A stretch of 61,904 nt of DNA. Source: Blastocatellia bacterium. Lineage in GTDB: Bacteria > Acidobacteriota > Blastocatellia > RBC074. The notes under the pieces were generated by a model. That model made no database searches, was not told the origin of the DNA, and was given only the letters and a program-made list of their open reading frames with translations. Position numbers and translations under genes: made by a program. Positions 12,879-50,834 of the stretch are shown piece by piece. Where the stretch lies: NCBI GenBank assembly GCA_035275345.1, contig DATEMY010000434.1, forward strand, positions 1 through 61,904. The letters are read 5' to 3'. The first letter of the stretch is position 1. Each line of letters begins with the position of its first letter.

Positions 12879-15305
<2,427 letters not shown>

Positions 15306-15401
15306 CTTTTCCTCGCTAAGCTATACGAAGGCTCACATAGATGCGAAATGACCTTCGTGATGTTTCGTGTGGCTTCGTGGATGAATCTCAGTGGAGGAAC
15401 A

Positions 15402-21958: not shown

Positions 21959-22030
21959 TGAGAGACAGAGTTAGGACTGCATCTGGATGGGAAACTTCCG
22001 AAATTTTCCACTACTTTCAAGGAGGCGAAG

Positions 22031-25093: not shown

Positions 25094-25212
25094 GGGAACC
25101 GTCATTCCCGGAAGCGCACACTCCGGCGCGGCAGGGTTGTCTCCGTGGATTTACCAAATTCACTGATTTCATCAATTACCTGTGGCGAATAGACTGGCAC
25201 GACAATTGGTTA
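25094..25212 (+). promoter_or_regulatory. Sigma-54-like -24/-12 element with upstream inverted-repeat site
   Basis: TGGCACGACAATTGGTTA at 25195-25212. GGGAACCGTCATTCCC at 25094-25109, which is 101 nt upstream of the TGGCAC. Confidence 0.6.
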
Positions 25213-27724: not shown

Positions 27725-27857
27725 GTTTCAGGTGTCAGGTTTCAGGTGTCAGGTTTCAGGTGTCAGGTTCCAGGTTTCAAGAAAAGAATGTCGCCGCGGA
27801 TTACAACCTGAAACCTGACACCTGAAACCTGACACCTGGAACCTGACACCTGACACC
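27724..27857. repeat. Heptamer-array hairpin: 8 x GGT(T/G)TCA facing 7 x TG(A/G)(A/C)ACC
   Basis: Alternating GGTTTCA/GGTGTCA at 27724-27779. The complementary heptamers lie at 27809-27857. Same word family and same genic context as 12729-12862. Confidence 0.9.
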
Positions 27858-27873
27858 TTCTTCGGGAGGAATT

Positions 27874-30312
27874 ATGCAGACCCTTTGGCAGGATTTGCGA
27901 TACGGATTGCGAACGTTGCTCAAAAACCCCGGCTTCACTCTGGTCGCGGTCGTCACGCTAGCGCTCGGCGTCGGCGTCAACACAGCGATCTTCAGCGTGG
28001 TTAACGGCGTGCTGCTGCGCCCGCTGCCTTTCAATCAGCCCGAACGCATCGTCACGTTGTGGGAGAATAACCTGAAAGACGGAATTGAGCGTGACGACGT
28101 TTCGCCGGCCAATTTCCTCGACTGGAGCGAACGCAGCCGAAGCTTTGAAGAGATGGCCTTCGCCAATCCGTGGAGCCTGGATTTCATAGGCGAGACTGAG
28201 CCTGAGACGTGGCGCGCGACGCGCGTCTCACAAGGCTTTTTCCGCATTCTGGGCGCACAGGCGATAGTCGGGCGCACGTTTCTCCCTGAGGAATACGAGA
28301 CCGGGCGCAACCAGGTGGTCGTGCTGAGTTACGGTTTGTGGCGGAGGCGTTTTGGCGCCGAGCCAGGCGTCGTCGGGCGGAAGTTGACGCTCGACGGTCA
28401 GCCGATGACGGTAGTGGGCGTAATGCCGCCGGAATTCAAATTGCGTCTGTTCGATCGTGAAGAAGAGTTGTGGTGGCCGCAGACGCCTGATGAAAGCATG
28501 CGTCGACAGCGTCGAGCGACTTATCTGAAAGTGATCGCGAGACTGAAACCCGGCGTAAGCGTCGAACAGGCGCGCGCCGAGATGAGTTCGATTGCGGCCA
28601 ATCTCGCTTCGGAATATCCCCAGACCAACGCGGGCGTCGGCGCGACAACGGTTACATTGACCGAGCAGGAGACGGGGCATGTCCGCACGGCTCTGCTGGC
28701 GTTGCTCGCCGCGGTCGCCGCGGTGCTACTGATCGCCTGCGCTAACGTGGCCAACCTGTTGCTGGCCCGCGGCAATGAGCGCGAGCGCGAGTTCGCGATC
28801 CGCGCGGCGATCGGAGCGGGAGGCGCGCGGTTGGCTCGGCAGACGTTGACTGAAAGTTTGTTGCTCGCGTCGCTTGGATGTGGAGGCGGCTTGTTGCTCG
28901 CCGCGTGGGGCATTGATCTGATCGTGGCGATGAGTCCGGGCGACATCCCTCGCCTCGAACAGGTCAGGCTGGATCGAGTGACGCTGCTGTTCGTCGCGGG
29001 TCTTTCATTCCTGACGGCCTTGATCTTCGGCTTTGCGCCCGCGCTCCAGTTTTCAAGACCGAAGCTTAGCGACTGCCTCAAGGAGGCTTCGCACACTGCG
29101 ACTGGAGGATCGACCAGGCGCAGACTGCGTAGCGCTCTGGTGATTTCAGAGATCGCGTTGGCGCTGGCGCTCCTGGTCGGCGCGGGGTTGCTTGTTCGCA
29201 GCTTCTTCACGCTGCTGAAGACCGATCCCGGCTTTGCCGCGGACAAGCTGGTCGCCCTCCAGACCTTCGTCTGGGATCGTTACGGCAAGCCGGAAGAGCG
29301 CGCGGCTTATGTCCAACAAGTGACCGAAAAGATGAGGTCCGCGCCTGGAGTCCAGACCGTCGGCGTGACGACCGCGCTGCCGTTTTTTGAAAGCAGCATG
29401 GATTCATCCTACCCGTTCACGGTCGAAGGCCGTCCCGCGCCGCCCGTAGGGCAGGAACCGACGGCTTTTGCGACCATCGCCAACAACGATTACTTCGCGG
29501 CGTTGGGCGCTCCGCTGCTGCGCGGCAGGATGTTCAGCGAATTCGATAAGATGGGCGCGGCCCCAGTCATCCTGATCAACGAGACGATGGGTCGCCGCCA
29601 TTTCCGCGACGAAAACCCCATCGGGCGCAAGCTCACCGTCCGCGGATCGCTGCGCGGGCAACCCACGCCATTGACGTTTGAAATCGTCGGCGTGGTCGGC
29701 GATGTGCGCCACGACGGATTGGACAGGGAGCCGCGCGCCGAATACTTCAGACCTTACGCCCAAATACCCAACGGCTCGATCATTTTTGTCGTGCGAACCG
29801 ATGTTGAACCGACGAACCTGCTCCAGGCTCTCAAGGCTCGCATTTGGGAAGTCAACGCGACGCAGCCGATTTACGCCGTCAGCGTCATGGCCGATTCGAT
29901 TGACGCTTCGCTCAAATCGCGGCGGTTCAGTTTGTGGTTATTCATCGCTTTTGCGGCGCTGGCGCTGGCATTGGCCATCGTCGGGATATACGGCGTGATG
30001 AGTTACTCGACCTCGCAGCGCACCCATGAAATCGGCGTGCGAATGGCGCTCGGCGCGGCGTCGCACGACATCATTAAACTGGTTATGAAGCAGGGAATGC
30101 GATTGACGATGGCCGGCGTCGCCATTGGATTGCTCGTCTCGATACTCTTTACCAGGTTGATGAGAGGCCTGCTTTATGGGGTTAGCGCGACTGATCCGCT
30201 GACCCTCGTCGTCGTATCGCTATTGCTCACAGGGGTTGCGCTGCTTTCCTGTTACGCGCCGGCGCGGCGGGCGACGAAAGTCGATCCGATGGTCGCATTA
30301 AGGCGCGACTGA
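27874..30312 (+). CDS. ADOP-family duplicated MacB/FtsX-type permease
   Basis: [22 protein letters not shown] signature and a [19 protein letters not shown] tail. Confidence 0.95.
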
Positions 30313-36302: not shown

Positions 36303-36421
36303 GGGATTCATCATTCCCATAACCGCACACTAGACTGATCGCCGGGGCGGAGGCTCCGCATGTCAACTCGAGCAAAATAAACGATTTAGACTTTCGGATC
36401 AGGTGGCACGTCGTTTGGTTA
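36303..36421 (+). promoter_or_regulatory. Sigma-54-like -24/-12 element with upstream inverted-repeat site
   Basis: TGGCACGTCGTTTGGTTA at 36404-36421. GGGATTCATCATTCCC at 36303-36318, which is 101 nt upstream of the TGGCAC. Confidence 0.6.
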
Positions 36422-37488: not shown

Positions 37489-39924
<2,436 letters not shown>

Positions 39925-40011: not shown

Positions 40012-42138
40012 ATGGGATTGCTTGATGTTTATCAAGGCCATCAGACGTGGACGGATTTTATCAGCGGCCAGAAGGCGTTTACCGCGCTTGAAGGATTATT
40101 AGCTCGTCGGATTGGGGACGCTACGACCGAAGAAAATCCCGGAGGGCTGTCGGTCGGGGTGACGAAGCGGGAACATCAGGTGGCGGTCGAGTCCGGGCTT
40201 GGGGCTTTGAATTTGGGACGCCTGCGCCACGTCAACGAGAACGCGGCGAGGTTGGAATTGGGAATTGAAAAGCTGGCGGGAGGTTTGGAGAGTCTCAAGG
40301 CCGATTTCAATTTGCTGCTGGGAGACATCGTCTGGCGTTTGGAGATGCAGCAGGAACCGCTCACGAACATCCTTGAAGAAATCCGTCTGGCCGAGTTCGA
40401 GCGCGAGGCCAGAGCTTATCGAACGCGCGCCGAGAGGGCTTATCTGAACGGCTGGTACGAAGAGGCGCTCGGCGATTATCTGGAAGCCGAAAAACGCAAC
40501 TACCCGGATTACACGGTTCATCGTTCAATCGCGCAGATCTACCTTTACAACATAGTCAATCCGCCGAAGGCCCTGGAATATTTCCTCAAAGCCGCCAAAT
40601 ACGCGCGGCCCAGCGATGTCGCTGGGGCGGCTGAGGCTCATTACTTCGCCGCCATAGTTTGCGTGATCGAGCGTCGGCTGGAACCCGCCCTCGAGCATTT
40701 GCGTCAGTCCACTCAACTCAACCCGAAACTCGCCGAAGCGCATTACCAGCAATCGTGCGTCGCCTCACTGCTGGGCGACGGCGAGCAGGCCGTCGCCAGT
40801 TTGGCCCAGGCCATAGAAGGCGACGCCCGATATTACGAACGCGCGAAGAGCGAAGCGGCCTTCGACCCGATTCGTTCGCGGGTTCAGGTTCTGCTCGACC
40901 AACTGATGCGCCCGGTCAGGGAGAAGATGGTCGAAGTCAAACAGGACGCGGCGCAATTGGACGGCTGTCTTATCGCGAGGGTTGCGGAAGAGGAGATCGC
41001 CGAGGCCTTTCATCAGGTCGAGCGCCAGGTGGCCGAATCTCCGACTTACCAGGCCGGCTTGCAGTCGCTCGAGACCCTTTCGCGGATCCAGCGCGAACTG
41101 CGCGAACTGCGCGACCGCTACTATAAACAATACGAGGTTAACCCGCGTGATTACGTTCGGTCGGTAGCCTTCAGCAACGACGGGCGGTTGCTGGCCTCGG
41201 GATTCCTTCAGGGCAATCTGCAGGTTTGGGAGGCCGGCTCGGGCGTCAAGCTTTACGCGCATTTGGCGCACCAGGCCAGCGTCACTTCGGTCGCTTTCAG
41301 CCCGAACAACCTGCTGCTGGCCACGGGCAGCCGCGACAACACGATCAAATTGTGGGAATCGGACACCGGCCAGGAGCTCCAGGTTCTGCGAGGGCACAAA
41401 GCCGAAGTGAGCTCCGTGGCCTTCAGTCCCGATGGCCAATGGCTCCTTTCTGCGAGTCACGACAAAACGATCAAAATCTGGCGAGTGATGACGGGGCGCG
41501 AAGCGCAAACTTTAGAAGGCCACACAATGCAGGTGACGGCGGCTGCCTTTACGCCCGACGGGCGGGCGATCGTTTCAGGGAGCTGGGACAAGACCATCAA
41601 AGTGTGGAACGTCTCGTCGGGATTGACGATACGAACCTTGACGGGACACACGAAGGGAGTCTCTTCGCTGGCCATCAGCCCCGTCTCCGGGGCCATCAGC
41701 CCCGTCTCCGGTCAGACCCCCGGTCAAAATGGATGCTGGCTGGCTTCGGGCGGCGAAGACGCGAAGGTCAAGCTCTGGGATTTGGAGCTTGGACGCGAAG
41801 TGCGGACTTTCAACGGACGTCGTAACAGCGTGACCTCCGTCGCATTCAGCCCCAACGGCGAGCTTCTGGCCTCCGGTTGTCTGGGGCAGGTGGTGATTTT
41901 GTGGAAGCTTTCCACGGGCGAAGTCGTCAAGCGGCTGAGATTCGAAAACATCAGTTACAACTCGGTTGCCTTCAGCCCGCAGGGACAATGGCTGGCGCTC
42001 GGCAACCGCGATCTGCAACTCTGGTTGAAGGCGATTTTGACTGAAGGGGAATTTGCCGAGATCAAGACGCCACACGGCGCTTTCCATTCGCCATTCGAGA
42101 TTCGCCATCTGTCATTCGATTTAACTGATGACGAATGA
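40012..42138 (+). CDS. TPR plus seven-bladed WD40 repeat protein with an uncharacterised N-terminal region
   Basis: The central region has TPR-like helices (AYLNGWYEEALGDYLEAEKRNP, AEAHYQQSC...). The C-terminal blades have the pattern VxSVAFSPDGxxLxSxSxDKTIKxW. Its 3' end overlaps the convergent AAA+ gene by 18 bp. Confidence 0.88.
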   Translation: MGLLDVYQGHQTWTDFISGQKAFTALEGLLARRIGDATTEENPGGLSVGVTKREHQVAVESGLGALNLGRLRHVNENAARLELGIEKLAGGLESLKADFNLLLGDIVWRLEMQQEPLTNILEEIRLAEFEREARAYRTRAERAYLNGWYEEALGDYLEAEKRNYPDYTVHRSIAQIYLYNIVNPPKALEYFLKAAKYARPSDVAGAAEAHYFAAIVCVIERRLEPALEHLRQSTQLNPKLAEAHYQQSCVASLLGDGEQAVASLAQAIEGDARYYERAKSEAAFDPIRSRVQVLLDQLMRPVREKMVEVKQDAAQLDGCLIARVAEEEIAEAFHQVERQVAESPTYQAGLQSLETLSRIQRELRELRDRYYKQYEVNPRDYVRSVAFSNDGRLLASGFLQGNLQVWEAGSGVKLYAHLAHQASVTSVAFSPNNLLLATGSRDNTIKLWESDTGQELQVLRGHKAEVSSVAFSPDGQWLLSASHDKTIKIWRVMTGREAQTLEGHTMQVTAAAFTPDGRAIVSGSWDKTIKVWNVSSGLTIRTLTGHTKGVSSLAISPVSGAISPVSGQTPGQNGCWLASGGEDAKVKLWDLELGREVRTFNGRRNSVTSVAFSPNGELLASGCLGQVVILWKLSTGEVVKRLRFENISYNSVAFSPQGQWLALGNRDLQLWLKAILTEGEFAEIKTPHGAFHSPFEIRHLSFDLTDDE

Positions 42139-43140
42139 TTTGCGTCCCATCATCCCGAGGCGCTCGCCCGGCGACAGGCGTGGAACCATGACCCTGAAGT
42201 TGAGAAAGTTCCACGGCGGCTCGTAGTTGACCAGTACCGCTCTGCCGGCCGCCAATTGTCCGGAGAGCATCAGATCGTAGAGTGGGAACTCCAGGAAGTT
42301 TCTGATCACGCGCTTGATCTGGCGCACCCTGTGGGTTGTGTCGTCCAGGCAGTGTCTGAGCAAAAAAGTTTTCGCCTCTTCCTCGATCCTGAAGCCGATC
42401 CCCGAGGTGGCCAGCTTTTGATCGACATCAGCGAGTTTGCTTTCCAACAGCGTGATGACGTCCTGCTCGTCAAGGCGTTCGAAGATCACTATCTCGTCAA
42501 TCCGGTTGACGAGGGAGGCGCCCAAGAGGTTATCAATCTCCTCCAAGACCACCATGCTTTGCCTCGGCTTCTCTTCCTCACCGCCGTTCTCGCCGTCCCC
42601 AAAGAACCCGATGGTTCGGCCCACCAGCTGATCGGTTTGCTTCTTCGACAAGTCGCCGGTCAGGATGATGAAAGTATTGCGGAGTGAAAAAATGTGGCCG
42701 ACCGTGTGGAGAACGCCGCGGTCAATGGAGGCGGCCAGATAGTCGCGAAAAACGGCAGGCGCTTTGTCTATCCTCTCGAATACCATGATGGAGAAAGGAG
42801 AAGGGCGGAACGGAGGAGTTACTTGCGAAAGCATTCTTCCGGCCATCAACTGTTCGCACAGGTTCGACTGCAAGTCGGAGGCTTGACCGAGAATCTGGCA
42901 ATTGACGTAGATCAGCTTGCGTTCATTCCCGAGCAAGACCTGGGCGAGCGCTTGAGCAAGATGCATTTTGCCCGAGCCGATCGGACCCGCGAAAAGAAGC
43001 GCCGCCAGCGGGCGACTCGAATCGGAATATCGGCCGTCGGCCAGAGCCAGCGTCACCGCCCGCGTCACGGCCGCTATGGCATACTCCTGCCCGACTACTT
43101 GCTCCTGAAGAGCCTGCATGAAATGACTTGAAAAGACCAT
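42121..43140 (-). CDS. Single-domain ClpA/ClpB D2-like AAA+ protein with non-canonical Walker motifs (cassette 1)
   Basis: LQEQVVGQEYAI...LLFAGPIGSGKMHLAQALA (GK-M in place of GK-T/S). IMVFERIDKA aligns with the ClpB LLDEIEKA. NTFIILTGDL, LVNRIDEIVIF, and a D2-small-like C-terminus. Confidence 0.8.
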   Translation of the reverse strand: MVFSSHFMQALQEQVVGQEYAIAAVTRAVTLALADGRYSDSSRPLAALLFAGPIGSGKMHLAQALAQVLLGNERKLIYVNCQILGQASDLQSNLCEQLMAGRMLSQVTPPFRPSPFSIMVFERIDKAPAVFRDYLAASIDRGVLHTVGHIFSLRNTFIILTGDLSKKQTDQLVGRTIGFFGDGENGGEEEKPRQSMVVLEEIDNLLGASLVNRIDEIVIFERLDEQDVITLLESKLADVDQKLATSGIGFRIEEEAKTFLLRHCLDDTTHRVRQIKRVIRNFLEFPLYDLMLSGQLAAGRAVLVNYEPPWNFLNFRVMVPRLSPGERLGMMGRKSFVIS

Positions 43141-43240
43141 ACAGCGCTTCAGCTTAAGGCGGCTTCCGGCTGGTTCAGGGAAGCGACACGGTCGGTTTTA
43201 GACCGTGGCCTCCCTGAACTGCCGTAGGGCCGAACGGGGC

Positions 43241-43864
43241 TTAGCAATTGATTCCAGGGATTGCCACCACTGGAGGACAGGGCAAAGCCATCTGGGGCAC
43301 ACCCACCTGTGGTCTCAGCGCCGGATGAATCTGGCTGACTGCCAGAGGCGGCGCCATGCAGGCCTGGGCCAGGGCGGCGGAGTAAGGATCGGTCACCTGA
43401 CCGGGCGCCACCCCGCACATTGCGGCCAATTGGATCGGGTCACACGCCTGCGGATTGATCAGCGGTCTGATCGGCAGCAGGCTCTGAGCAATTGGAGAAA
43501 CCTGCTGCGGAATCACCGCCCCGGTTACCGGATCAACGCACGTGACCGGAGTTCCATAGGGCGACGGTGGGCACCAGGCGACTTGCTGGAAGGGCGAGCC
43601 GATATGTCCAAGTGGGGATTGGAGCAGCGGCGCTACCTGCGGGATGATGTACGGGGAAATGCCGAATCCGGCTGCGTACGGAGAGACGCCGTATCCGGTT
43701 GTGTACGGACTGGCGCCGATTCCGCACTGCGCAGCGGCGATCGGGTTACACGCATAAGGATTCATGATTGGATTGATTCCTCCGAAAGCCGCGCCCGCGC
43801 CATATTGTGGCGGACAGTAGGCGACCGGCTGAAGAGGAGTAGTGAAATTCATTCTCGGGAACAT
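43241..43864 (-). CDS. Pro/Gly/Ala/Gln-rich low-complexity protein, Lys- and Glu-free, Cys-containing (cassette 1)
   Basis: GGAGG ribosome-binding site. MFPRMN start, PQYGAG..GGINP, SPY repeats, VDPVTGAVIPQQ and LPIRPLINP blocks, all conserved with the paralog at 46974-47621. No signal peptide is evident. Confidence 0.75.
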   Translation of the reverse strand: MFPRMNFTTPLQPVAYCPPQYGAGAAFGGINPIMNPYACNPIAAAQCGIGASPYTTGYGVSPYAAGFGISPYIIPQVAPLLQSPLGHIGSPFQQVAWCPPSPYGTPVTCVDPVTGAVIPQQVSPIAQSLLPIRPLINPQACDPIQLAAMCGVAPGQVTDPYSAALAQACMAPPLAVSQIHPALRPQVGVPQMALPCPPVVAIPGINC

Positions 43865-44025
43865 AACATAGCCTCCTAAGTTGCTTGAGTGTCTCGAAGA
43901 CCTCGGTTGACAATGACCGAGAGGCGCTCTCGCATGAGAGACACACCTCCCCCTCTCACTTCTTCAAGCGATTGTTGAAGCAAGATTCTACAAAGCATCG
44001 TTTGAAGGTTTTCCGGTGAACCACC

Positions 44026-44298
44026 TCAAAATCCTGGCACTCTCAAATACGGCGACATTCCCCAGGCGTATTGAACCATTGAATTCGCGTAGGGCGTCGA
44101 CGGCAGCGCGGACATCATTCCTGTCGTCGCGTAGGGCATCGCCGCGTTCTGCATCGGTCTGGCAGTCATCTCCGCGAACAACAGGTTGATCAATTCGTGT
44201 ATCTCTTGAAGCTTGTCCATTTCTTCGGGCGAGATCTGTGAGTTGGACATTTCATTGGGATGGTTAATTTGGTGTTGTGCTGGCGCAGCCCAAGCCAT
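44026..44298 (-). CDS. 90-aa protein: acidic helix plus Met/Pro/Tyr-rich tail (cassette 1)
   Basis: AGGAGG ribosome-binding site. SPEEMDKLQEIHELINLLFAEM, then PYATTGMM...YAWGMSPYLRVPGF. Strongly conserved with 47937-48209. Confidence 0.75.
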   Translation of the reverse strand: MAWAAPAQHQINHPNEMSNSQISPEEMDKLQEIHELINLLFAEMTARPMQNAAMPYATTGMMSALPSTPYANSMVQYAWGMSPYLRVPGF

Positions 44299-44342
44299 TG
44301 ATTTGCCTCCTTTCGGACAAATAAAAAGAAACAGTTAACATA

Positions 44343-44876
44343 CTACTCCTCCGATCTCCCGGCCCCTTCAACCTTAAGCTTGGGAATGGTGATCTGAAGA
44401 ATCCCGCTGACAAATTTATTTTTCATTCTTTCCGGCTGGACATTACTGGGCAGTGGAAAGAGCCGTTCGAAACTGCCGTAGGCGCGTTCCGAACTGTGAT
44501 AGGCGCTATCCTCACTCGCTTTTTTGAAACGCCGCATCCCGCGGATTGTGAGGATGTTGTTGGTCTGGGTCACCTTGACGTCTTCCTGTCCCAGCCCAGG
44601 CAACTCCAAATTGATCAGGTAGGCGTCCTGAGTCTCGCAAACCTCCGCCGCCGGCGTCCAGGCGGGGGACTTCGACAATCGCCACGAGATGCCGCTGTTA
44701 ATCAAGCACATGTTCAGTTGATCGATTTCACTTTGAACCAGCGTTACGGGATTGATTCCCTTAGGCAATGGATAGCGGGGTTTTTTTATATCAATCTCCG
44801 GAGCCGGAAGCCCGGTCATTTGCTCGAAGACATCTTTGACATCCGTCAGAACCTGGTCATAAGAGTACATCCTCAT
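44343..44876 (-). CDS. Hsp20/alpha-crystallin family small heat-shock protein with a conserved ~85-aa N-terminal extension (cassette 1)
   Basis: Alpha-crystallin domain AWTPAAEVCETQDAYLINLELPGLGQEDVKVTQTNNILTIRG...ERAYGSFERLFPLPSNV...GILQITIPK. The start is set at MRMYSY (GGAGAG ribosome-binding site, agrees with the paralog) rather than the track start at 44897. Confidence 0.9.
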   Translation of the reverse strand: MRMYSYDQVLTDVKDVFEQMTGLPAPEIDIKKPRYPLPKGINPVTLVQSEIDQLNMCLINSGISWRLSKSPAWTPAAEVCETQDAYLINLELPGLGQEDVKVTQTNNILTIRGMRRFKKASEDSAYHSSERAYGSFERLFPLPSNVQPERMKNKFVSGILQITIPKLKVEGAGRSEE

Positions 44877-45299
44877 AAGCTCTCTCCGTATTTTCATTTT
44901 TTCTTCGTTAGTATCTCAACCGGCTCGCACGAATGTACGGCGAATCGGTTCGTTCGCCGCGGGGCTTTCGTAAGTCTGATCGCGACAGCGCGCCGAAGCG
45001 GCTCGCCAGGCGATGATATGCGATTGGCCTTGATTATTGATCATAGGCGCTCTTGTTCGCGCCTTGCACAGGCGTAAGTATCAGCATTTCCTGTTCCTAA
45101 TTCGGAGATCAGCGAGGTTCTCAAGCAAAATTGCCCTAAATTCGGAGAAATAAGTAATCACAACGCAATGTCAATACATACGGATCGCGGCGCGAGGGCT
45201 AAGCGTTTGTTTGCTGTGATGGGAAGGGGTACGGCGATGTTTTAAGGAACGTTTTGCCGACATACAACCACTGTATGGCGGATGTTCATTCGATGATCG

Positions 45300-45728
45300 T
45301 TAGACAGGCTTTCGATTTGGGCGCCGGTTGTAAACCATGAGCGCCACCGTGTACAGGCACGCCAGACCGATAACAATAAGTGCGCCCCAGAATGAAACCG
45401 GAAGCAGATATGATGCGTTGCTCCCGTCGGTGGCGATCAGGAAGACCCACTCGTCGAGCGCCATCCCCATCCCGACGCCGAAAATCCAGCGCGCCAGATC
45501 GAGCCTGCGCGTCGCCGCGTCAAAAGTCGCCAACGGAATCCCTCCCGCAACGATCAGCAGCAGTCCCGTAAAGAGATGGTGAATGTTATAGCTCCCGACA
45601 TTCAGATCGGTATTGGGCGAAATATGCAGATAGGCGCGCAATAGCGCGAAGGTCAGGCTCATTGAACAGAGCACAATGATCCCGTTCTTATTAATTGCGC
45701 GGGAGGGTGTGGTCGAGTGGTTTTGCAT
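45300..45728 (-). CDS. Small integral membrane protein (about 4 TM segments)
   Basis: Hydrophobic segments IIVLCSMSLTFALL, LFTGLLLIVAGGIPLA, IFGVGMGMAL and WGALIVIGLACLYTVALMV. Lies 16 nt downstream of the cassette-2 AAA+ gene. No counterpart in cassette 1. Confidence 0.65.
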   Translation of the reverse strand: MQNHSTTPSRAINKNGIIVLCSMSLTFALLRAYLHISPNTDLNVGSYNIHHLFTGLLLIVAGGIPLATFDAATRRLDLARWIFGVGMGMALDEWVFLIATDGSNASYLLPVSFWGALIVIGLACLYTVALMVYNRRPNRKPV

Positions 45729-45744
45729 TGTCTTTCCGCGCCTT

Positions 45745-46755
45745 TCATCTCATTGCGAAATGCCCGCCAGGCGCCAAGCGGGGGATCATGACTCGGAAAT
45801 CGAGAAAATTCCGCGGCGGCTCGTGTTTGACCAGCGCCGCCATGCCGGATGTCAATCGCCCGGAGAGCATCAGATCGGAGAGCGGAAACACCAGGTGGTT
45901 TCTAACCGCGCGCTTGATCTGCCGCGCCCTATGCGTCGGATCGTTCAGGCACTGCCTGAGCAAAAAGGATTTCGCCCCCTCCTCGATCCTGAAGCCGATG
46001 CCCGATGAGGCCAGCTTTCGAGCTATCTCGGATAGTTTGCGTTCCAGCAGCGTGATCACGTTCTGCTCGTTGAGGCGCTCAAAAATCACGATCTCGTCAA
46101 TGCGGTTGACGAGAGTGGCGCCTAACAGGTTATCAATCTCTTCCATTAACACCAAGTGCTCCCGCGGCGCCTCCTGGGCGTCGCTCTCATCATCACTAAA
46201 AAAGCCTATGGTTCTGCCTACCAACTGATCAGTCTGCTTCTTTGACAGGTCGCTGGTCAGAATGATGAAAGTGTTGCGGAGTGAAAACATGCAGCCAAGC
46301 GAGTAGAGAACTCCGCGGTCAATCGCTGCGGCCAGATAATCGCGAAAGACGGGCGGCGCCTTCTCAATCTTCTCGAACGCCAGTATGGAGAAAGGAAAAG
46401 GGGTGAACGGAGGGGTTATTTGGGAAAGCATGCTTCCGGCCATCAACTGTTCGTGTAAGCTCGACTCCGCGTATAAGTTCGACTGCGAGTTCGAATGTTT
46501 ACTGAGGATTTGGCAATTGACATAGATCAATTTTCGATCGTCGCCGAGCAGAACTCGGGCGAGCGCTTTAGCGACATGCATTTTGCCCGAATTTGTTGGT
46601 CCTGCGAACAGGAGCGTTGCGAGCGGGTTGTTGGAATTGGAGTTGCGCCCATCGGCCAGAGCCAGCGTAACAGCTCTTGCTAAAGCCGCCACAGCATACT
46701 CGCGCCCTACCATTTGCTCCTGAAGAGCCTGCATTAGATGACTTGAAAAGACCAT
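45745..46755 (-). CDS. Single-domain ClpA/ClpB D2-like AAA+ protein with non-canonical Walker motifs (cassette 2)
   Basis: Paralog of 42121-43140: FAGPTNSGKMHVAKALA, ILAFEKIEKA, NTFIILTSDL, LVNRIDEIVIF. The start is set at MVFSS by alignment with the paralog. The 14-codon extension in the track starts at a TTG. Confidence 0.8.
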   Translation of the reverse strand: MVFSSHLMQALQEQMVGREYAVAALARAVTLALADGRNSNSNNPLATLLFAGPTNSGKMHVAKALARVLLGDDRKLIYVNCQILSKHSNSQSNLYAESSLHEQLMAGSMLSQITPPFTPFPFSILAFEKIEKAPPVFRDYLAAAIDRGVLYSLGCMFSLRNTFIILTSDLSKKQTDQLVGRTIGFFSDDESDAQEAPREHLVLMEEIDNLLGATLVNRIDEIVIFERLNEQNVITLLERKLSEIARKLASSGIGFRIEEGAKSFLLRQCLNDPTHRARQIKRAVRNHLVFPLSDLMLSGRLTSGMAALVKHEPPRNFLDFRVMIPRLAPGGHFAMR

Positions 46756-46973
46756 TTCATACGCCGTTTCTCCAGCGGAGGTTGGTGGATCGTTCAATCC
46801 AAGCCTATCGGCCCAAGCCTATCGCCGCCGCGCATAGGTTGGGCGAGAACGATCCACCGGCCATCGCCGGAGGGATTAAGGGAGGCTGAAGGCCCAGGCC
46901 CTCAGCCTCTCGTCACAAGTCTCCACAGGCTAGACCGTGTGTTCTCCCTGAGCCGCTGGGAAGCGCGGCGCGC

Positions 46974-47621
46974 CTAGAAAGGGATTCCGGCAGTGGGTGA
47001 ACCATACTGCGTCGCCGCGTTCCATACCGCCATCTGAAACGCGTCGGGCTGATGGGGAGTGATCAGCGGCCTGATCGGTAGATGAGTTTGGGCCAGCAGG
47101 GAAGACTGCTGGGCGATCAACGCTCCGGTGATCGGGTCAACGCCCAGAACCGGACCGTTGAGAGGCGTCGGAGCGCCCCATCCGAAGACTTGTTGCGGCG
47201 CCGGATATCCGAACGCTTGCTGTGGGAAGGTGTGCAAACTGAGCGGGACGCCAGGTTGACCGATCCCGCCTCCGAATTGCTGCCCCCAACCCTGATGCAA
47301 GAGCGGGCTGATCCCCTGGCTGAACGGATTGCCCCAGCCGCCATATGGGCTTTGCCCGATCGCCGAATGTTGAGTATGCGGCGGCAGGAGCGCCGGGTTG
47401 GTCGTCGGGATTTGCGCGACCAGTACGGGATGAACATATTGGGTCTGTCCCAACGCGTATGGATTTACCCCGATTCCGCTCAGTCCCGCTATCGGGTTAA
47501 TCGGATACGGAAGCGCCTGGTGTGGAACCATCGGATTGATTCCTCCGAACCCCACGCCATATTGGGGAAAGCCGAAGGCAAACGTTTGAAATGGATTCGT
47601 GATATTCATTCTTGGGAACAT
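46974..47621 (-). CDS. Pro/Gly/Gln-rich low-complexity protein, Lys-, Glu- and Cys-free (cassette 2)
   Basis: AGGAG ribosome-binding site. MFPRMN, PQYGVGFGGINP, VDPITGALIAQQ and LPIRPLITP blocks shared with 43241-43864. Confidence 0.75.
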   Translation of the reverse strand: MFPRMNITNPFQTFAFGFPQYGVGFGGINPMVPHQALPYPINPIAGLSGIGVNPYALGQTQYVHPVLVAQIPTTNPALLPPHTQHSAIGQSPYGGWGNPFSQGISPLLHQGWGQQFGGGIGQPGVPLSLHTFPQQAFGYPAPQQVFGWGAPTPLNGPVLGVDPITGALIAQQSSLLAQTHLPIRPLITPHQPDAFQMAVWNAATQYGSPTAGIPF

Positions 47622-47936
47622 AAAAAAATCTCCTAAAGTTTCATGAGTGTCTCAATGACCTCAGTTAATCGTGATCAAGAGGCGCGTTGGCGCATTCTCG
47701 CGCGCGCGCCTCTCCCTCTCACTTCTCCATGCGATTGTTGAAGCGAGGGTCGACACTAAAGAATGAGACGGAATGCGGACATCCCGACAGCGTCACGACC
47801 GTAAGGAGAGGCTCAATTTTCAGCCTGCCTCACGGGTGTGGGCTACTGACGCGGCGTCGCATCCCCATCCCAGCGATTGTTGTGTGTGACGCGTAAGTTC
47901 TGGCGCTTACGCATGATTGATTCGGCGTAAACCGCC

Positions 47937-48209
47937 CTAGAAGCCTGGCGTCCTCAAATAAGGCGCGATTCCCCAGGCATAATGGAACAGTGGCTGTGTG
48001 TAGGGCGCCGATGGCATCGCGGGCATCATCCCTGTCGTCGTGTAGGGCAATGCCGCGCTCTGCGGCGATCTGGCGGCTAGTTCTGCGAACAATAGATTGA
48101 TCAGCTCGTGTATCTCCTGAAGCTTCTCCATCTCCTCTTGTGAGATCTGTGGGCCGTTCATCTCGTTGGGATTACTGGTTTGGTATTGCGCTGGCGCTGC
48201 AAAAGTCAT
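47937..48209 (-). CDS. 90-aa protein: acidic helix plus Met/Pro/Tyr-rich tail (cassette 2)
   Basis: The ATG at 48209 is preceded by AGGAGG. MTFAAPAQYQ...SQEEMEKLQEIHELINLLFAEL...YAWGIAPYLRTPGF. Confidence 0.75.
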   Translation of the reverse strand: MTFAAPAQYQTSNPNEMNGPQISQEEMEKLQEIHELINLLFAELAARSPQSAALPYTTTGMMPAMPSAPYTQPLFHYAWGIAPYLRTPGF

Positions 48210-48246
48210 TATTTGCCTCCTTCTGAACAAAGAAATAATTCATGGG

Positions 48247-48780
48247 TTAATCCTCTGACCTTCCTGTCCCATTAGCCTTGGCCTTGGGGATGATGATCTG
48301 AAGGATTCCATTGATAAATTTATATTTCATCCTCTCAGGTTGGGTATTGCTCGGTAGTGGAAAGAGCCGCTCGAACGCCCCGTAGATGCGCTCTGAGCTG
48401 TGATAGACGGCCTCTTCAGTCACTTTCTTGAAACGCCGCGCGCCGCGCACCGTGAGTATGTTATTGGCTTGTGTAACCTTGACATCTTCCTGGCCCAGTC
48501 CAGGCAGTTCCAGATTGACCGTATAAGCGTCCTGGGTCTCGTATATTTCCGAGGCCGGCGCCCACGCGGGCGACTTCGCCAACCGAGACGAGATGCCGCT
48601 GTTGATCAGGCACATATTGAGCTGATTGATTTCGCTCTGTACCAGCGTTATCGGATTGACCCCCTTAGGCAGTGGGTAACGTGGTCTTTTGATGTCGATC
48701 TCCGGAGCCGGAAGACCGGTGAGCTGCTCATACACATCTTTGGCGTCTGTTAAAACCTGGTCATAAGAATACATTCTCAT
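48247..48780 (-). CDS. Hsp20/alpha-crystallin family small heat-shock protein (cassette 2)
   Basis: Close paralog of 44343-44876: AWAPASEIYETQDAYTVNLELPGLGQEDVKVTQANNILTVRG...ERIYGAFERLFPLP. GGAGGG ribosome-binding site. Confidence 0.9.
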   Translation of the reverse strand: MRMYSYDQVLTDAKDVYEQLTGLPAPEIDIKRPRYPLPKGVNPITLVQSEINQLNMCLINSGISSRLAKSPAWAPASEIYETQDAYTVNLELPGLGQEDVKVTQANNILTVRGARRFKKVTEEAVYHSSERIYGAFERLFPLPSNTQPERMKYKFINGILQIIIPKAKANGTGRSED

Positions 48781-49268
48781 AAGCCCTCCAATATTTCATT
48801 TTCGATTCTTCGTCAGAATCCCAACCGGCCCGCGCGAATATGCTGCGAATCGGTTAATCGGCAGCAAGTTTTCGTGAGTCTGATCACACGTCAGCTATGA
48901 ATAGACTCGCTCACTATAGCTTGCGATGGCATACGCCCATCATTGAGGATCGTTGTTTGAAACATCAACGATCGGTTTATATTATTTTTTTGTAGACGCC
49001 ATTGACCTACCGCTTTACCTAATCGGAATTCCTCGCATTTCCCGTTCCTCTATTCGAAGATGGGCAAATAAACTCGAAGAGCCAAGTGATCACAACGGCT
49101 TGTCAATTCAATCGGAAAAAAGCGCGGATAAGTCGGTTGATGACATCGAAGGAAAAGGATACGACGATGATGTAAAAAGGTAATGTTGAAACTAGACACA
49201 CTGCGAGGCAAGTTCATTCAATCATCGATCGCCTTAATGTAGCGAGAAAAATGGGCGCCTCGATTGCA

Positions 49269-49323
49269 ATGAGACGGAAGGATGAGACAGGGGAAATGAG
49301 ACAGAGGAAATGAGACAGGGGAA
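49269..49323. repeat. Tandem direct repeat, 4 units of ATGAGAC(A/G)G(G/A)GGAA (13-14 nt)
   Basis: ATGAGACGGAAGG / ATGAGACAGGGGAA / ATGAGACAGAGGAA / ATGAGACAGGGGAA. The word is related to the arms of the hairpins at 21898 and 39935, but no complementary arm lies nearby. Confidence 0.8.
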
Positions 49324-49373
49324 ATCCGATATAAAAAGTTGTGATAAAATTTGTGAATGCATAAGCCGATTGC

Positions 49374-49538
49374 TTGACAGCTTTTTGACGGCTCTGTTAT
49401 AAAGTCTGCGAAATTTAAATATGAACGTGGCGATTTAGGGCGACTTGCTCCACGTAAAAAGACTGCTAAAGAGCCGCTGGGATTCCAGAGAGATTCAACG
49501 AACCCTGCGCACTCTTCAGGCGCGGGGTTTTTGATTTT
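49374..49538 (+). promoter_or_regulatory. Promoter plus short leader ending in an intrinsic terminator (candidate attenuator, riboswitch or small RNA) upstream of the transsulfuration genes
   Basis: TTGACA at 49374-49379, an 18-nt spacer, then TATAAA at 49398-49403. The stem AACCCTGCGC / GCGCGGGGTT (one G-U pair) is followed by TTTGATTTT, ending at 49538. Confidence 0.45.
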
Positions 49539-49604
49539 CCGCTCCTTTGAGATTCTCGCCTTCCAATCGCCATGCGAAACAAAATGAAAACCTCTGGGGA
49601 AGTT

Positions 49605-49641
49605 ATGAATGGGACTTATAAGTCTTATAAGTCCCATTCAT
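49605..49641. repeat. Perfect 18-nt-arm palindrome just upstream of the cystathionine synthase-like gene
   Basis: ATGAATGGGACTTATAAG t CTTATAAGTCCCATTCAT. It contains CTTATAAGT twice in tandem. Confidence 0.85.
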
Positions 49642-49673: not shown

Positions 49674-50834
49674 ATGGCGACTGCGGATTATCAATTTCTC
49701 GAAACGATATCATTGCATGGCGGAACGACGCCCGATCCGACGACCGGCGCGATGCTAACGCCGATATATCAGACCACAACCTACAGGCAGCCGGCGGTCG
49801 GAGAGCACAAAGGCTACACCTACAGCCGTTCGGGGAATCCGACCGTGACCGCGCTCGAAGGCCGTCTGGCGGCGATTGAGGGCGCGGAGTTCGCCACGGC
49901 TTATGTAACCGGGCTGGCGGCGACGACAGTCTTGTGCCTGGCGCTGCTCAAAGCCGGCGACAGAGTCGTGTTGTCACAGGCGGTTTATGGCGGCACAGTG
50001 AGACTCTTGAAACAGGTGCTCGCTCAATTCGGGGTCGAATCTGATTTCATCGATACATCCGACTCTGCCGCGCTCGTCAAGGCGCTGGAAGAGCCGGCGA
50101 AGTTTCTCTTCATCGAAACGCCCGCGAATCCTACTTTGAAATTGACCGACATCGAATTGGCCGCGCATCTGTCGAAAGACGCGGGAGCGTTGTTGGTGGT
50201 TGACAACACTCTGCTGACGCCGGCGCTGCAGCGCCCGCTCGATCTGGGCGCAGACATCGTTCTGCATTCCACGACGAAATTCATCGAAGGCCACAACGCG
50301 ACGGTCGGTGGATCGTTGATTACGCGTGACGCCGAATTGCACGAGAAACTGGCCTTCGTTCGCAACGCCATCGGCGCGATCCAGGCGGCCTTCCCCGCGT
50401 GGCTGACGTTACAGGGGGTCAAGACTTTGCCGTTGCGAATGGCGCAGCATTCGGCCAATGCGCTGCGGGTCGCCGAATTCCTGGAATCGCACCCGCGCGT
50501 CGAATGGATCGCCTATCCCGGCCTCGAATCGTTCCCGCAATATGAATTGGCGAAACGACAGCAAACTTCCGGCGGCGCGTTGCTTGCGTTCGAGGTCGAA
50601 GGCGGCGTCGAAGCCGGCGTGCGGTTAATGAATTCGGTCAAGCTCTGTTCGCTGGCCGAAAACCTGGGCGCGGCGGAAACGCTGATCACTCATCCAGTCT
50701 CGATGACGCATGGAGACGTGCCGCCGGAGCAGCGGGCCGCCGCCGGCATCACCGACGGGCTGGTGCGCCTCTCGGTCGGTTTGGAAAACCCTGACGATTT
50801 GATCGCCGATCTCGACCAGGCTTTGAAGCGATAA
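49674..50834 (+). CDS. Cys/Met-metabolism PLP-dependent enzyme (cystathionine gamma-synthase/gamma-lyase-like)
   Basis: YSRSGNPT motif, the PLP-lysine context HSTTKFIEGH, and the C-terminal LVRLSVGLE. Confidence 0.9.
   Translation: MATADYQFLETISLHGGTTPDPTTGAMLTPIYQTTTYRQPAVGEHKGYTYSRSGNPTVTALEGRLAAIEGAEFATAYVTGLAATTVLCLALLKAGDRVVLSQAVYGGTVRLLKQVLAQFGVESDFIDTSDSAALVKALEEPAKFLFIETPANPTLKLTDIELAAHLSKDAGALLVVDNTLLTPALQRPLDLGADIVLHSTTKFIEGHNATVGGSLITRDAELHEKLAFVRNAIGAIQAAFPAWLTLQGVKTLPLRMAQHSANALRVAEFLESHPRVEWIAYPGLESFPQYELAKRQQTSGGALLAFEVEGGVEAGVRLMNSVKLCSLAENLGAAETLITHPVSMTHGDVPPEQRAAAGITDGLVRLSVGLENPDDLIADLDQALKR

What the first reader, a model, noticed from the sequence alone, without database searches (positions are those of the whole stretch)
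42121..48780. Tandemly duplicated four-gene cassette: Hsp20, 90-aa bipartite protein, uncharged Pro/Gly/Gln-rich protein, ClpB-D2-like AAA+
Two co-oriented copies on the minus strand (48780 to 45745, and 44876 to 42121) keep the same gene order. Each of the four proteins is clearly paralogous to its counterpart. Conservation is high for the sHSPs, the small proteins and the AAA+ proteins. It is block-wise for the low-complexity proteins. I know of no described system with this combination: a holdase-type chaperone, a Hsp100-related single-ring ATPase and two aromatic/proline-rich proteins that look intrinsically disordered. Inference: the cassette is either a dedicated chaperone/remodeller pair for a self-assembling or condensate-forming low-complexity protein, or a stress-induced protective matrix. 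Cassette 2 additionally carries a small 4-TM membrane protein (45300-45728). The neighbouring TPR-WD40 gene overlaps the cassette-1 AAA+ gene tail to tail.
Basis: partly seen in the sequence, partly recalled or inferred. Interest (0 to 1): 0.88.

Follow-up and report, generated by a model that had tools for sequence, protein, structure and literature searches.

The report
Soil-bacterial chaperone operon for disordered protein
Two old copies of a four-gene operon found only in soil Blastocatellia (Acidobacteriota) encode a small heat-shock protein, a 90-residue helix-plus-tail protein, an abundant uncharged disordered protein and a ClpB-like ATPase that has lost its catalytic residues; no described system matches it, and its function is still inferred, not shown.

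Summary
Both cassettes sit where stated. The four paralogue pairs are 80, 67, 37 and 72% identical, and all eight genes are under purifying selection.

In 92 non-redundant loci the order sHSP, small protein, P-rich protein, AAA+ never breaks (69/69, 66/66, 38/38 where the contig reaches). Among 185,579 species genomes it occurs in only 8, all Blastocatellia or Acidobacteriota MAGs.

- The AAA+ is not a credible unfoldase here. Walker A is GKM, Walker B DE is ER/EK, sensor-1 N is D, and the pore loop is gone.
- The two copies are old paralogues (dS 0.8-1.3), not sister lineages.
- The 4-TM gene is a dispensable upstream neighbour of cassette B.
- The convergent TPR-WD40 gene belongs to the system in this clade.

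New findings:
- The P-rich protein is predicted disordered (pLDDT 47).
- P-rich_B plus small_B are among the best RNA-covered stretches of the 62-kb window in four soil metatranscriptomes. The AAA+ and WD40 genes are nearly silent.
- A conserved structured leader precedes every P-rich gene of the window's clade, and a strong hairpin follows it.
- More basal relatives carry a response-regulator-ANTAR gene and leader terminators instead.

No family, defence, phage, PDB or literature match names the system. Best reading (about 0.4): a regulated, chaperone-controlled, self-associating disordered protein for stress or dormancy.

The parts
48247..48780 (-). sHSP_A: Hsp20/alpha-crystallin protein, 177 aa, with a conserved 75-aa N-terminal region and an acidic tail ...GRSED
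   Evidence: ORF; PF00011 E 3e-18; 80% identical to sHSP_B; dN/dS 0.09 against L014
47937..48209 (-). small_A: 90-aa protein with one amphipathic helix (KLQEIHELINLL) and a Pro/aromatic tail
   Evidence: no Pfam or NCBIfam match; dN/dS 0.37
47622..47758 (-). Leader_A: conserved structured 5' leader ending at the P-rich_A start codon. A terminator-like hairpin lies just upstream at 47769-47786.
   Evidence: Covariance-model hit, 140.8 bits; fold z -4.7; alignment A3; terminator-like site
46974..47621 (-). P-rich_A: 215-aa uncharged Pro/Gly/Gln/aromatic-rich low-complexity protein
   Evidence: dN/dS 0.46
46756..46973 (-). Spacer between P-rich_A and AAA+_A holding strong GC hairpins (attenuator or terminator-like)
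   Evidence: fold z -2.9 to -3.5
45745..46755 (-). AAA+_A: ClpB/ClpC-D2-like single AAA+ module, 336 aa, degenerate (Walker A GKM, Walker B EK)
45300..45728 (-). 4-TM membrane protein: facultative upstream neighbour of the sHSP, not a cassette member
   Evidence: Homologue upstream of the sHSP in L019, L022, L024; remnants only in L001 and L014-L017; no family match
45083..45098 (-). Candidate -24/-12 (sigma-54-type) element AGGAACAGGAAATGCT, about 220 nt upstream of sHSP_B, followed by a conserved hairpin
   Evidence: GGAA[CT]-N5-ATGCT is kept 215-290 nt upstream of the sHSP in most cassettes of this clade but not in tandem A copies. As a bare pattern it is not above chance.
44343..44876 (-). 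sHSP_B: Hsp20, 177 aa, tail ...GRSEE
   Evidence: Shine-Dalgarno GGAGAG 7 nt before the ATG at 44876; dN/dS 0.06; RNA contigs
44026..44298 (-). small_B: 90-aa helix-plus-tail protein
   Evidence: AF2 gives helix 24-45 and the rest at low confidence; dN/dS 0.17; high RNA depth
43865..43995 (-). Leader_B: conserved structured 5' leader of P-rich_B (helices P1-P3, then AGGAGG). This copy lacks about 125 nt present in L014b upstream of the leader.
   Evidence: Covariance-model hit, 142.2 bits; covariation counts; intergenic comparison; an RNA contig with no differences spans 43425-44082
43241..43864 (-). P-rich_B: 207-aa uncharged, Pro-rich, Cys-containing disordered protein; among the best RNA-covered stretches of the window
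   Evidence: AF2 mean pLDDT 47.5, pTM 0.15; dN/dS 0.23-0.29; RNA depth
43161..43234 (-). Long GC hairpin between P-rich_B and AAA+_B (attenuator or 3'-stabiliser)
   Evidence: -48.8 kcal/mol, z -5.0; the equivalent spacer in L014, L005 and L001 also holds a strong hairpin, and GC-rich inverted repeats are visible in that spacer in L027, L029 and L031; RNA depth falls at least tenfold across it
42121..43140 (-). AAA+_B: ClpB/ClpC-D2-like single AAA+ module, 339 aa, degenerate (Walker A GKM, Walker B ER, sensor-1 D, no pore loop)
40012..42138 (+). TPR-WD40 protein, 708 aa, convergent with the AAA+ gene: N-terminal region, about 4 TPRs (132-276), a region without Pfam match (about 290-370), then a WD40 propeller
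   Evidence: found convergent and downstream of the last AAA+ gene in all 22 non-A-type cassettes of this clade with enough sequence, in at least two different neighbourhoods

Best explanation
This is a Blastocatellia-specific operon whose main product is an abundant, almost uncharged, intrinsically disordered protein rich in Pro, Gly, Gln and aromatic residues. I propose that this protein self-associates in the cytoplasm into a condensate, gel or other assembly, and that the other gene products control this.

Proposed roles (all inferred):
- The sHSP keeps the P-rich protein soluble or dosed. It lacks its own C-terminal IXI anchor, so its beta4/beta8 groove would be free to bind the invariant LPIRPLI or terminal GIPC motifs of the P-rich protein.
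- The 90-aa protein acts as adaptor or cap. Its helix could dock on a folded partner, and its tail resembles the P-rich protein.
- The ClpB-D2-like AAA+ is made at low level. In this clade it has lost its hydrolysis and threading residues, so it would act as a scaffold or nucleotide-sensing regulator, not an unfoldase.
- The convergent TPR-WD40 protein is a second low-abundance scaffold or regulator. It may dock the acidic sHSP tail (G[RK]S[EG][ED]-COOH).

Expression appears graded by RNA elements: a candidate -24/-12 promoter, a structured leader before the P-rich gene, and a hairpin after it. Basal relatives use a response-regulator-ANTAR antiterminator instead, which implies signal-dependent induction.

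The likely physiological role is stress or dormancy protection in soil (heat, drying, starvation).

Shown here: gene content, conservation, selection, predicted disorder, motif loss, RNA abundance pattern and RNA structures. Inferred: every binding step, the self-association and the physiological role.
For: Co-occurrence:
- sHSP upstream in 69/69, P-rich downstream in 66/66 and AAA+ downstream in 38/38 cassettes where sequence allows.
- Only 8 of 185,579 species genomes carry it, all Blastocatellia or Acidobacteriota MAGs.

Real, selected genes:
- dN/dS is 0.06-0.46 for all eight genes.

Disorder:
- P-rich_B has mean pLDDT 47.5 and pTM 0.15 with a 33-sequence alignment.
- The family has 4-8 charged residues per 168-332 aa, variable repeat cores, and invariant short motifs (MFPRMN..., DPxTGA, LPIRPL, DPYS, terminal Cys).
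- The small protein is one helix plus a low-confidence tail, with 0 to about 9 PG(M/L)(T/N) repeats.

Expression:
- RNA contigs in four soil metatranscriptomes concentrate on P-rich_B and small_B. Run X8 shows depth 142-162 there against 7 or less elsewhere in the window.
- sHSP_B is lower, and the AAA+ and WD40 genes are near zero.
- A contig with no differences spans the small/P-rich junction.

sHSP:
- No [IV]x[IV] motif follows the ...IPK motif in 82/85 family members, and the N-terminal region is unusually conserved.
- The acidic 177-aa form occurs only with the TPR-WD40 gene; relatives without it have basic, longer tails.

AAA+ degeneracy.

RNA elements:
- The leader is found once per P-rich gene and nowhere else in 603 kb. 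96.9% of cells pair, and 6 pairs show compensatory change, above all 500 shuffles and all slid controls.
- Post-P-rich hairpins.
- ANTAR genes with leader terminators in relatives.
Against: - No experiment and no structure-based docking supports any of the proposed contacts.
- Disorder and composition do not prove condensation or self-assembly.
- The metatranscriptome evidence comes from assembled contigs without strand information or sampling conditions. Reads from related strains pile up on conserved stretches, so 'stress-induced' is not shown. In runs X4 and X6 other short stretches reach equal or higher depth.
- The link between the TPR-WD40 gene and the acidic sHSP tail is confined to one clade, so shared ancestry could explain it.
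- ANTAR-linked relatives keep Walker A GKT and Walker B EE and may be active ATPases, so a remodelling role cannot be excluded for the family as a whole.
- The -24/-12 match is no better than chance as a pattern.
Confidence: 0.4

Rival explanations
1. The P-rich and small proteins are not clients but partners or regulators of the sHSP. They would form a chaperone-buffer or 'molecular shield' that coats other cellular proteins or membranes under stress, or a storage form that keeps the sHSP inactive until it is needed.
For: The genes are co-transcribed and the RNA ranking is P-rich and small above sHSP. The sHSP lacks its own IXI anchor. The P-rich protein is disordered. The small protein's tail resembles the P-rich composition.
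Against: Known protective disordered proteins (LEA, CAHS, hydrophilins; my own knowledge) are highly charged and hydrophilic, whereas this one is almost uncharged and rich in aromatics and proline. Nothing here separates this reading from the best explanation.
Confidence: 0.2
2. The P-rich protein is an exported or envelope-associated structural protein (matrix, sheath or adhesive). The sHSP, small protein and AAA+ would act as cytoplasmic export chaperones.
For: Its composition recalls extracellular structural proteins. A terminal Cys and several conserved Cys could cross-link outside the cell. A 4-TM gene and many MacB-type permease genes lie nearby in the window.
Against: The N-terminus MFPRMN(I/F)TTPL... 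has no signal-peptide-like n- and h-regions (read from sequence). No secretion-system gene is conserved with the cassette. The flanks differ between loci, and the 4-TM gene is often decayed.
Confidence: 0.1
3. The P-rich protein is a prolamin-like storage protein (carbon and nitrogen reserve as Pro and Gln), deposited with chaperone help and regulated by nitrogen-type signalling.
For: It is rich in Pro and Gln. L029 and L030 carry (PFQQ[SP])n repeats like cereal prolamins. ANTAR regulators often control nitrogen genes (my own knowledge). mRNA abundance is high.
Against: Gln makes up about 8-15% in most of the family members examined, and Arg and Asn are scarce, so the protein is a poor nitrogen store. 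Invariant short motifs and a conserved N-terminus argue for specific interactions. No protease or mobilising enzyme is linked.
Confidence: 0.05
4. The small protein is a precursor of a ribosomally made, modified peptide (leader helix plus core tail). Alternatively, the locus is an anti-phage defence system.
For: The small protein has a bipartite leader-like helix and a variable tail. There is a weak PADLOC hit of the AAA+ to DolB.
Against: No modifying enzyme, protease or exporter is conserved with it. The DolB hit covers only the shared D2-small region, and DolA is absent. There are no phage-family links beyond generic Hsp20 and Clp matches.
Confidence: 0.03

Closest known systems
sHSP-Hsp100 bichaperone pairs (IbpA/IbpB with ClpB; sHSP20-ClpG/ClpK heat-resistance loci)
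   Same: An Hsp20-family holdase is encoded with a ClpB-related AAA+ module. The best sequence matches of the AAA+ are the D2 rings of ClpB and ClpC (E 1e-34 to 1e-27).
   Different: The AAA+ here has a single module with no N-, M- or D1 domain. Walker A Thr, Walker B Glu, sensor-1 Asn and the pore loop are lost. Scores of 90-120 bits compare with cut-offs of 1232-1900 for ClpB, ClpG and ClpK. Two dedicated disordered proteins and a TPR-WD40 partner have no counterpart in those systems.
Motif-mediated docking on chaperones: IPV/IXI motifs in the sHSP beta4/beta8 groove (for example BAG3-HSPB8), and acidic EEVD tails on TPR co-chaperones (Hop, CHIP). From my own knowledge.
   Same: The sHSP has no IXI tail of its own (82/85), while the P-rich family keeps an invariant L-P-I-R-P-L-I and a G-I-P-C end. 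The sHSP tail G[RK]S[EG][ED]-COOH co-occurs with a TPR protein.
   Different: These are resemblances in logic only. No homology to BAG3, Hop or CHIP was found, no carboxylate-clamp residues were identified, and no binding was tested.
Degenerate AAA+ proteins used as scaffolds or regulators (for example Torsin-type non-canonical AAA+). From my own knowledge.
   Same: The fold is conserved and the protein is under strong purifying selection (dN/dS 0.15-0.23) even though catalytic motifs are lost.
   Different: This family keeps the Arg-finger (NRID) and sensor-2 Arg positions by alignment. It derives from the Clp D2 ring. Basal members still have GKT and EE.
Eukaryotic low-complexity, uncharged, aromatic/Pro/Gln-rich proteins (FG-nucleoporins, FUS-like LC domains, prolamins, amelogenin). 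From my own knowledge.
   Same: Composition: 7-11% aromatic residues among Gly, Pro, Gln and Ser spacers, almost no charge, and repeat-number variation.
   Different: No sequence homology was found. This is a bacterial cytoplasmic protein carrying conserved short motifs and served by a dedicated operon.
ANTAR-controlled operons (EutV, AmiR, NasR/NasT type)
   Same: Basal relatives have a receiver-ANTAR gene directly upstream. One or two leader units each combine a conserved motif, a GC hairpin and a T-run before the sHSP.
   Different: The window's clade has neither the ANTAR gene nor the motif. No chaperone or disordered-protein operon under ANTAR control turned up in the papers searched.

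Membership tests
Hsp20/alpha-crystallin small heat-shock proteins | Alpha-crystallin domain | tested here: met
   PF00011 E 1e-19 and 3e-18, above the cut-off
Hsp20/alpha-crystallin small heat-shock proteins | C-terminal I/V-x-I/V anchor used for oligomer assembly (typical, not universal) | tested here: not met
   Absent after the ...IPK motif in 82 of 85 family members and in both window copies
Hsp20/alpha-crystallin small heat-shock proteins | ATP-independent holdase activity | not testable with these tools
   Needs an aggregation-suppression assay
Hsp100/Clp unfoldases (ClpB, ClpC, ClpA, ClpG/K, ClpV) | AAA_2 large subdomain plus ClpB_D2-small subdomain | tested here: met
   PF07724 and PF10431 above cut-offs; aligned to ClpC/ClpB D2 over 300 residues
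Hsp100/Clp unfoldases (ClpB, ClpC, ClpA, ClpG/K, ClpV) | Walker A GxxGxGK[T/S] | tested here: not met
   GSGKM in both window copies. Family census: GKM 32, GKI 6, GKT 10, GKC 1, GKK 1
Hsp100/Clp unfoldases (ClpB, ClpC, ClpA, ClpG/K, ClpV) | Walker B hhhhDE with a catalytic Glu | tested here: not met
   DE is replaced by ER (B) and EK (A). Census: EK 23, ER 8, EE 11, EN 1
Hsp100/Clp unfoldases (ClpB, ClpC, ClpA, ClpG/K, ClpV) | Pore-loop aromatic residue (GYVG) for substrate threading | tested here: not met
   The aligned segment reads ...EQLMAGRMLSQVTPPF, with no GYVG
Hsp100/Clp unfoldases (ClpB, ClpC, ClpA, ClpG/K, ClpV) | Full-length architecture (N domain, D1, and M domain where relevant, D2), reaching the equivalog score | tested here: not met
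   339 and 336 aa, matching only the D2 part. 118-120 bits against a cut-off of 1232 for ClpB, and 85-100 against 1900 for ClpG/ClpK
Hsp100/Clp unfoldases (ClpB, ClpC, ClpA, ClpG/K, ClpV) | Arg finger and sensor-2 Arg | tested here: inconclusive
   NRID and R-x-x-x-R align with the ClpC positions, but function was not assessed
Dodola anti-phage system (DolA/DolB) | DolB-like ATPase together with DolA | tested here: not met
   The PADLOC DolB hit (E 2e-11) covers only residues 200-291. No DolA or other defence model matched
Gas-vesicle clusters (sHSP-like GvpH plus AAA+ GvpN) | GvpA/J shell proteins and GvpF/L, GvpN families | tested here: not met
   No Gvp family matched any cassette protein in Pfam or NCBIfam
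ANTAR-regulated operon | Adjacent receiver-ANTAR gene and a leader with motif plus terminator | tested here: not met
   Absent from the window (tblastn and motif scan). Present in relatives L027, L030-L032, L095, L096, L098, L102-L105, L108 and L112
Sigma-54-dependent promoter | GG and GC elements at -24/-12 spacing, plus an enhancer-binding activator | tested here: inconclusive
   GGAAC-N5-ATGCT has the right spacing and is conserved across diverged upstream regions. It has 3 mismatches to the consensus and is not above chance. No activator was identified.
Rfam RNA families (for the P-rich leader) | Match to a curated covariance model | tested here: not met
   No hit at gathering or at E<=1 over the leaders

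The most novel reading that the evidence does not exclude
Soil Blastocatellia make a prion-like or FG-like, uncharged low-complexity protein in bulk. This protein reversibly gels or condenses the cytoplasm for dormancy. Assembly would be gated by a dedicated sHSP (groove-motif binding), a helix-tail capping protein, a catalytically dead Clp-D2 ring and a TPR-WD40 scaffold, with riboregulatory leaders setting the ratios of the parts. That would be a bacterial, operon-encoded system for regulating a condensate, with no described counterpart.
Probability: 0.25. Interest if true: 0.85.

Novelty: new variant of a known kind. Interest (0 to 1): 0.66.

Why it matters
Acidobacteriota are among the most abundant soil bacteria, and little is known about how they persist.

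This operon is lineage-specific and strictly conserved in gene order. Its disordered-protein gene is among the best RNA-covered stretches of this 62-kb region in situ. If the reading is right, it would be a rare bacterial example of a low-complexity protein with its own chaperone and regulator set. It would then be a tractable model for how cells keep an aggregation- or condensation-prone protein under control.

The family also offers a natural series of Clp-D2 modules, running from apparently intact (GKT/EE) to degenerate (GKM/E[KR]).

Two protein families (the small protein and the P-rich protein) and one leader RNA have no entry in Pfam, NCBIfam, PHROGs, PADLOC or Rfam. Gene callers sometimes miss the P-rich gene, so it is under-annotated.

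Tried and rejected
Searches that found nothing:
- Rfam, at gathering threshold over the window and at E<=1 over the locus: nothing on the leaders.
- tRNA scan: none.
- PADLOC and PHROGs: only generic Hsp20 and Clp similarity, plus a partial DolB hit.
- Profiles of the P-rich and small families against PDB sequences: nothing significant. The best E of 0.03 was to polyester hydrolases and is compositional.
- Four literature searches for the gene combination, for Blastocatellia with Hsp20 and desiccation, for ANTAR with sHSP, and for disordered protein with sHSP operon: no description of this system.

Weak or uninformative results:
- Sigma-70 promoter and terminator scan: fewer sites than shuffles give.
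- Sigma-54 consensus search: not above chance, so the candidate rests on conservation only.
- AF2 of the P-rich protein gave no fold, so no structure search was run.
- The fold of leader_B alone is not better than shuffles (z -0.8). Support comes from leader_A and from covariation.

Ideas dropped:
- A recent tandem duplication or gene conversion (dS 0.8-1.3; A+B sister in 14/100).
- Spurious ORFs.
- The 4-TM gene as part of the cassette.
- P0201, a 312-aa fusion of the small protein's N-terminus to an AAA+ lacking Walker A. It looks like a deletion allele or assembly chimera and was not used as evidence.

Full report
**1. Observation**

The ORF list shows both cassettes on the minus strand at the stated places. 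The paralogue pairs are 80% (sHSP), 67% (90-aa protein), 37% in blocks (P-rich) and 72% (AAA+) identical.

Pfam and NCBIfam recognise only HSP20, AAA_2 plus ClpB_D2-small, and TPR plus WD40. The small, P-rich and 4-TM proteins match nothing. The P-rich proteins have 4 and 6 charged residues in 215 and 207 aa.

Start codons were refined from orthologues and Shine-Dalgarno positions: sHSP_B at 44876, small_A at 48209, AAA+_A at 46755.

**2. Is it a unit?**

The small protein has 111 homologue clusters in the 5.8-billion-protein collection, all unnamed. A profile search of 1.84 billion representatives finds only 23. The P-rich family has 79 clusters, also unnamed.

In 185,579 species genomes the marker occurs in 8, all Blastocatellia or Acidobacteriota MAGs.

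I gathered 112 loci, of which 92 are non-redundant and hold 95 cassettes, and mapped the window's proteins onto them. Where the contig reaches far enough:
- the sHSP is upstream in 69/69;
- the P-rich gene is downstream in 66/66;
- the AAA+ gene is downstream in 38/38.

Flanking genes differ between lineages, so the linkage is not just local synteny.

All eight window genes are under purifying selection against the L014-L016 orthologues. dN/dS is 0.06-0.09 for the sHSPs, 0.17 and 0.37 for the small proteins, 0.23-0.46 for the P-rich proteins and 0.15-0.23 for the AAA+ proteins. Copy A is the more relaxed.

**3. The duplication**

Paralogue dS is 0.8-1.3. In a neighbour-joining tree of sHSP plus AAA+, the A and B types each form a clade (100/100), but A+B as sisters gets 14/100.

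The tandem A-(4TM)-B arrangement recurs in L014, L015 and L036. A-type cassettes also stand alone, without B or WD40, in L041, L055 and L087; in L055 the cassette is followed by efflux genes. So these are old paralogues, or one copy was acquired from a relative. This is not a recent tandem copy.

The 4-TM gene lies upstream of the sHSP in single-cassette loci and is often decayed.

**4. The proteins**

*sHSP.* It has a normal alpha-crystallin domain. The 75-aa N-terminal region is unusually conserved, and no I/V-x-I/V anchor follows ...IPK in 82/85 members. Every sHSP linked to the TPR-WD40 gene is exactly 177 aa and ends G[RK]S[EG][ED]. Relatives without the WD40 gene have longer, basic tails.

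*Small protein.* It has an invariant helix KLQEIHELINLL (AF2 helix 24-45), then 0 to about 9 PG(M/L)(T/N) repeats, then a tail PY..S.FQY.WG..PY.R.PGF.

*P-rich protein.* AF2 with 33 sequences gives mean pLDDT 47.5 and pTM 0.15. The conserved islands are MFPRMN(I/F)T.P, GFGGINP, DPxTGAxI, LPIRPLI, DPYS and a terminal Cys. Between them the repeats vary (GQQFGG, SPISPI, PFQQP).

*AAA+.* Aligned to ClpC/ClpB D2, Walker A is GSGKM, Walker B DE is ER or EK, sensor-1 N is D, and the GYVG pore loop is absent. The Arg-finger and sensor-2 positions are kept. Across the family there is a gradient:
- ANTAR-linked basal loci have GKT with EE.
- L025 and L026 have GKT with EN or EK.
- The window's clade has GK[M/I] with E[K/R].

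The window's proteins are therefore unlikely to hydrolyse ATP or thread substrates. This is inferred from motif knowledge, not tested.

*TPR-WD40.* It has about four TPRs (132-276) and a WD40 propeller. It is convergent with the last AAA+ gene in all 22 non-A-type cassettes of this clade with enough sequence. It is absent from standalone A-type cassettes and from basal loci.

**5. Expression and regulation**

Four soil metatranscriptomes hold contigs of the locus. Depth is concentrated on P-rich_B and small_B:
- X8: 142-162
- X5: 23-31
- X6: 7-17
- X4: 5-11

sHSP_B is lower, the AAA+ and WD40 genes are near zero, and cassette A is almost silent. Over the rest of the window, depth stays at 7 or below in X8. 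Elsewhere only short partial matches reach similar values. A 658-nt contig with no differences spans the small_B/P-rich_B junction.

Three RNA features fit this pattern:

(a) *A leader of about 130 nt directly before every P-rich gene of this clade.* A covariance model built from 16 copies finds 62 hits in 603 kb, one per cassette and none elsewhere. These include a weak hit in an ANTAR-clade locus. In the resulting alignment 96.9% of cells pair and 6 pairs show compensatory change. This is above all 500 shuffles and all slid controls, although the alignment was fitted to the model.

(b) *A strong hairpin between the P-rich and AAA+ genes in every lineage folded.* Sequences differ but z is -2.9 to -5.0. 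This matches the drop in RNA.

(c) *A conserved GGAA[CT]-N5-ATGCT element at -24/-12 spacing, 215-290 nt upstream of most sHSP genes of this clade.* It is missing before the tandem A copies. As a bare pattern it is not above chance.

Basal relatives instead have a receiver-ANTAR gene directly upstream of the sHSP, in three different neighbourhoods. Their leaders hold one or two units, each with the motif G[CA]GATGGCGC[CT], a GC hairpin and a T-run. The window has neither. Signal-dependent control is therefore an old property of the system.

**6. Mechanism**

The evidence fits an operon built to make a large amount of a disordered, uncharged, aromatic and Pro-rich protein. It makes somewhat less of a dedicated sHSP and a helix-tail adaptor, and trace amounts of two scaffold or regulator proteins.

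I propose chaperone-controlled self-association of the P-rich protein as a stress or dormancy device. The contacts would be motif-based: LPI or IPC motifs in the free sHSP groove, and the acidic sHSP tail on the TPR domain. Every binding step is inference.

The rivals are listed with their tests: a shield or co-chaperone role, an exported structural protein, a storage protein, and a modified-peptide precursor or defence system.

**7. Comparison and novelty**

The nearest known logic is the sHSP-Hsp100 bichaperone pair. Membership of the Clp unfoldases fails on four defining motifs and on architecture.

No library or paper searched names the set. I rate it a new variant of a known kind: a chaperone operon. 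It includes two unannotated protein families and an unannotated leader RNA. A more novel reading is not excluded.

Noticed in passing
window 49417-49489 (+): Sub-threshold match to the SAM_alpha (SAM-II) riboswitch: 27.5 bits against a gathering score of 36, E 0.0046. It keeps the CGUGG...CCACGU helix and GCUAAAG, and lies about 185 nt upstream of a Cys/Met-metabolism PLP enzyme gene (49674-50834). This is probably a real SAM riboswitch. The 139-aa ORF on the opposite strand (49218-49637) is then likely spurious. RNA contigs touch 49424-49572.
   Followed up: partly
window about 12725-12870 and about 27720-27865 (+): Just upstream of two MacB-type permease genes lie runs of about 10 heptamer repeats (GGTGTCA or GGTTTCA). 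They are followed by the complementary heptamers (CCTGACA or CCTGAAA), which would form long repeat-built hairpins. Soil metatranscriptome contigs pile up here (depth 11-26).
   Followed up: partly
window 3309-5699, 5714-8140, 10297-12729, 12879-15305, 15348-17828, 25283-27724, 27874-30312, 37489-39924 (+); perhaps also 18385-20691: At least eight paralogous genes of about 810 aa for MacB/FtsX-type duplicated permeases, 41-49% identical to the copy at 37489-39924. This large local family is typical of Acidobacteriota.
   Followed up: partly
window 3169-3184, 10160-10175, 25195-25210, 36404-36419 (+): Four near-consensus sigma-54-type sites, TGGCAC-N5-TTGGT. Three lie about 90-140 nt upstream of MacB-type permease genes. 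They are much closer to consensus than the candidate upstream of sHSP_B.
   Followed up: no
window 43996-44025 compared with L014 10274-10433: Compared with its closest relatives, the window's small_B/P-rich_B spacer lacks about 125 nt upstream of the leader. In L014b that stretch includes GC-rich inverted repeats. This may explain why an exact RNA contig reads through from small_B into P-rich_B.
   Followed up: partly
protein P0201 (metagenome, 312 aa): The small protein's N-terminus (residues 1-63) is fused in frame to an AAA+ protein that starts at ...YVNCQ and so lacks Walker A. It looks like a deletion allele or assembly chimera that removes the small protein's tail, the P-rich gene and the AAA+ N-terminus.
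   Followed up: no
L014 10550-10855, L016 1825-2157, L029/L030 9113-9346: Gene callers miss or mis-start P-rich genes and call an ORF on the opposite strand instead. In L029 and L030 the real gene starts upstream and carries about ten PFQQ(S/P) repeats. The family is therefore under-annotated in public data.
   Followed up: partly
L025 5003-8401: A 1132-aa PhoH-like ATPase ORF that seems to be interrupted by two intein-like insertions, downstream of a basal cassette.
   Followed up: no
window 20876-21874 and 22031-23029 (+): Two tandem paralogous 332-aa proteins with signal-peptide-like N-termini and many repeats of about 30 aa (..LIELKALGV..YVKEMR..GF.NL..). Short inverted repeats (TGTCTC.TATTTTTCT) lie in the spacer at 21904-21967.
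   Followed up: no
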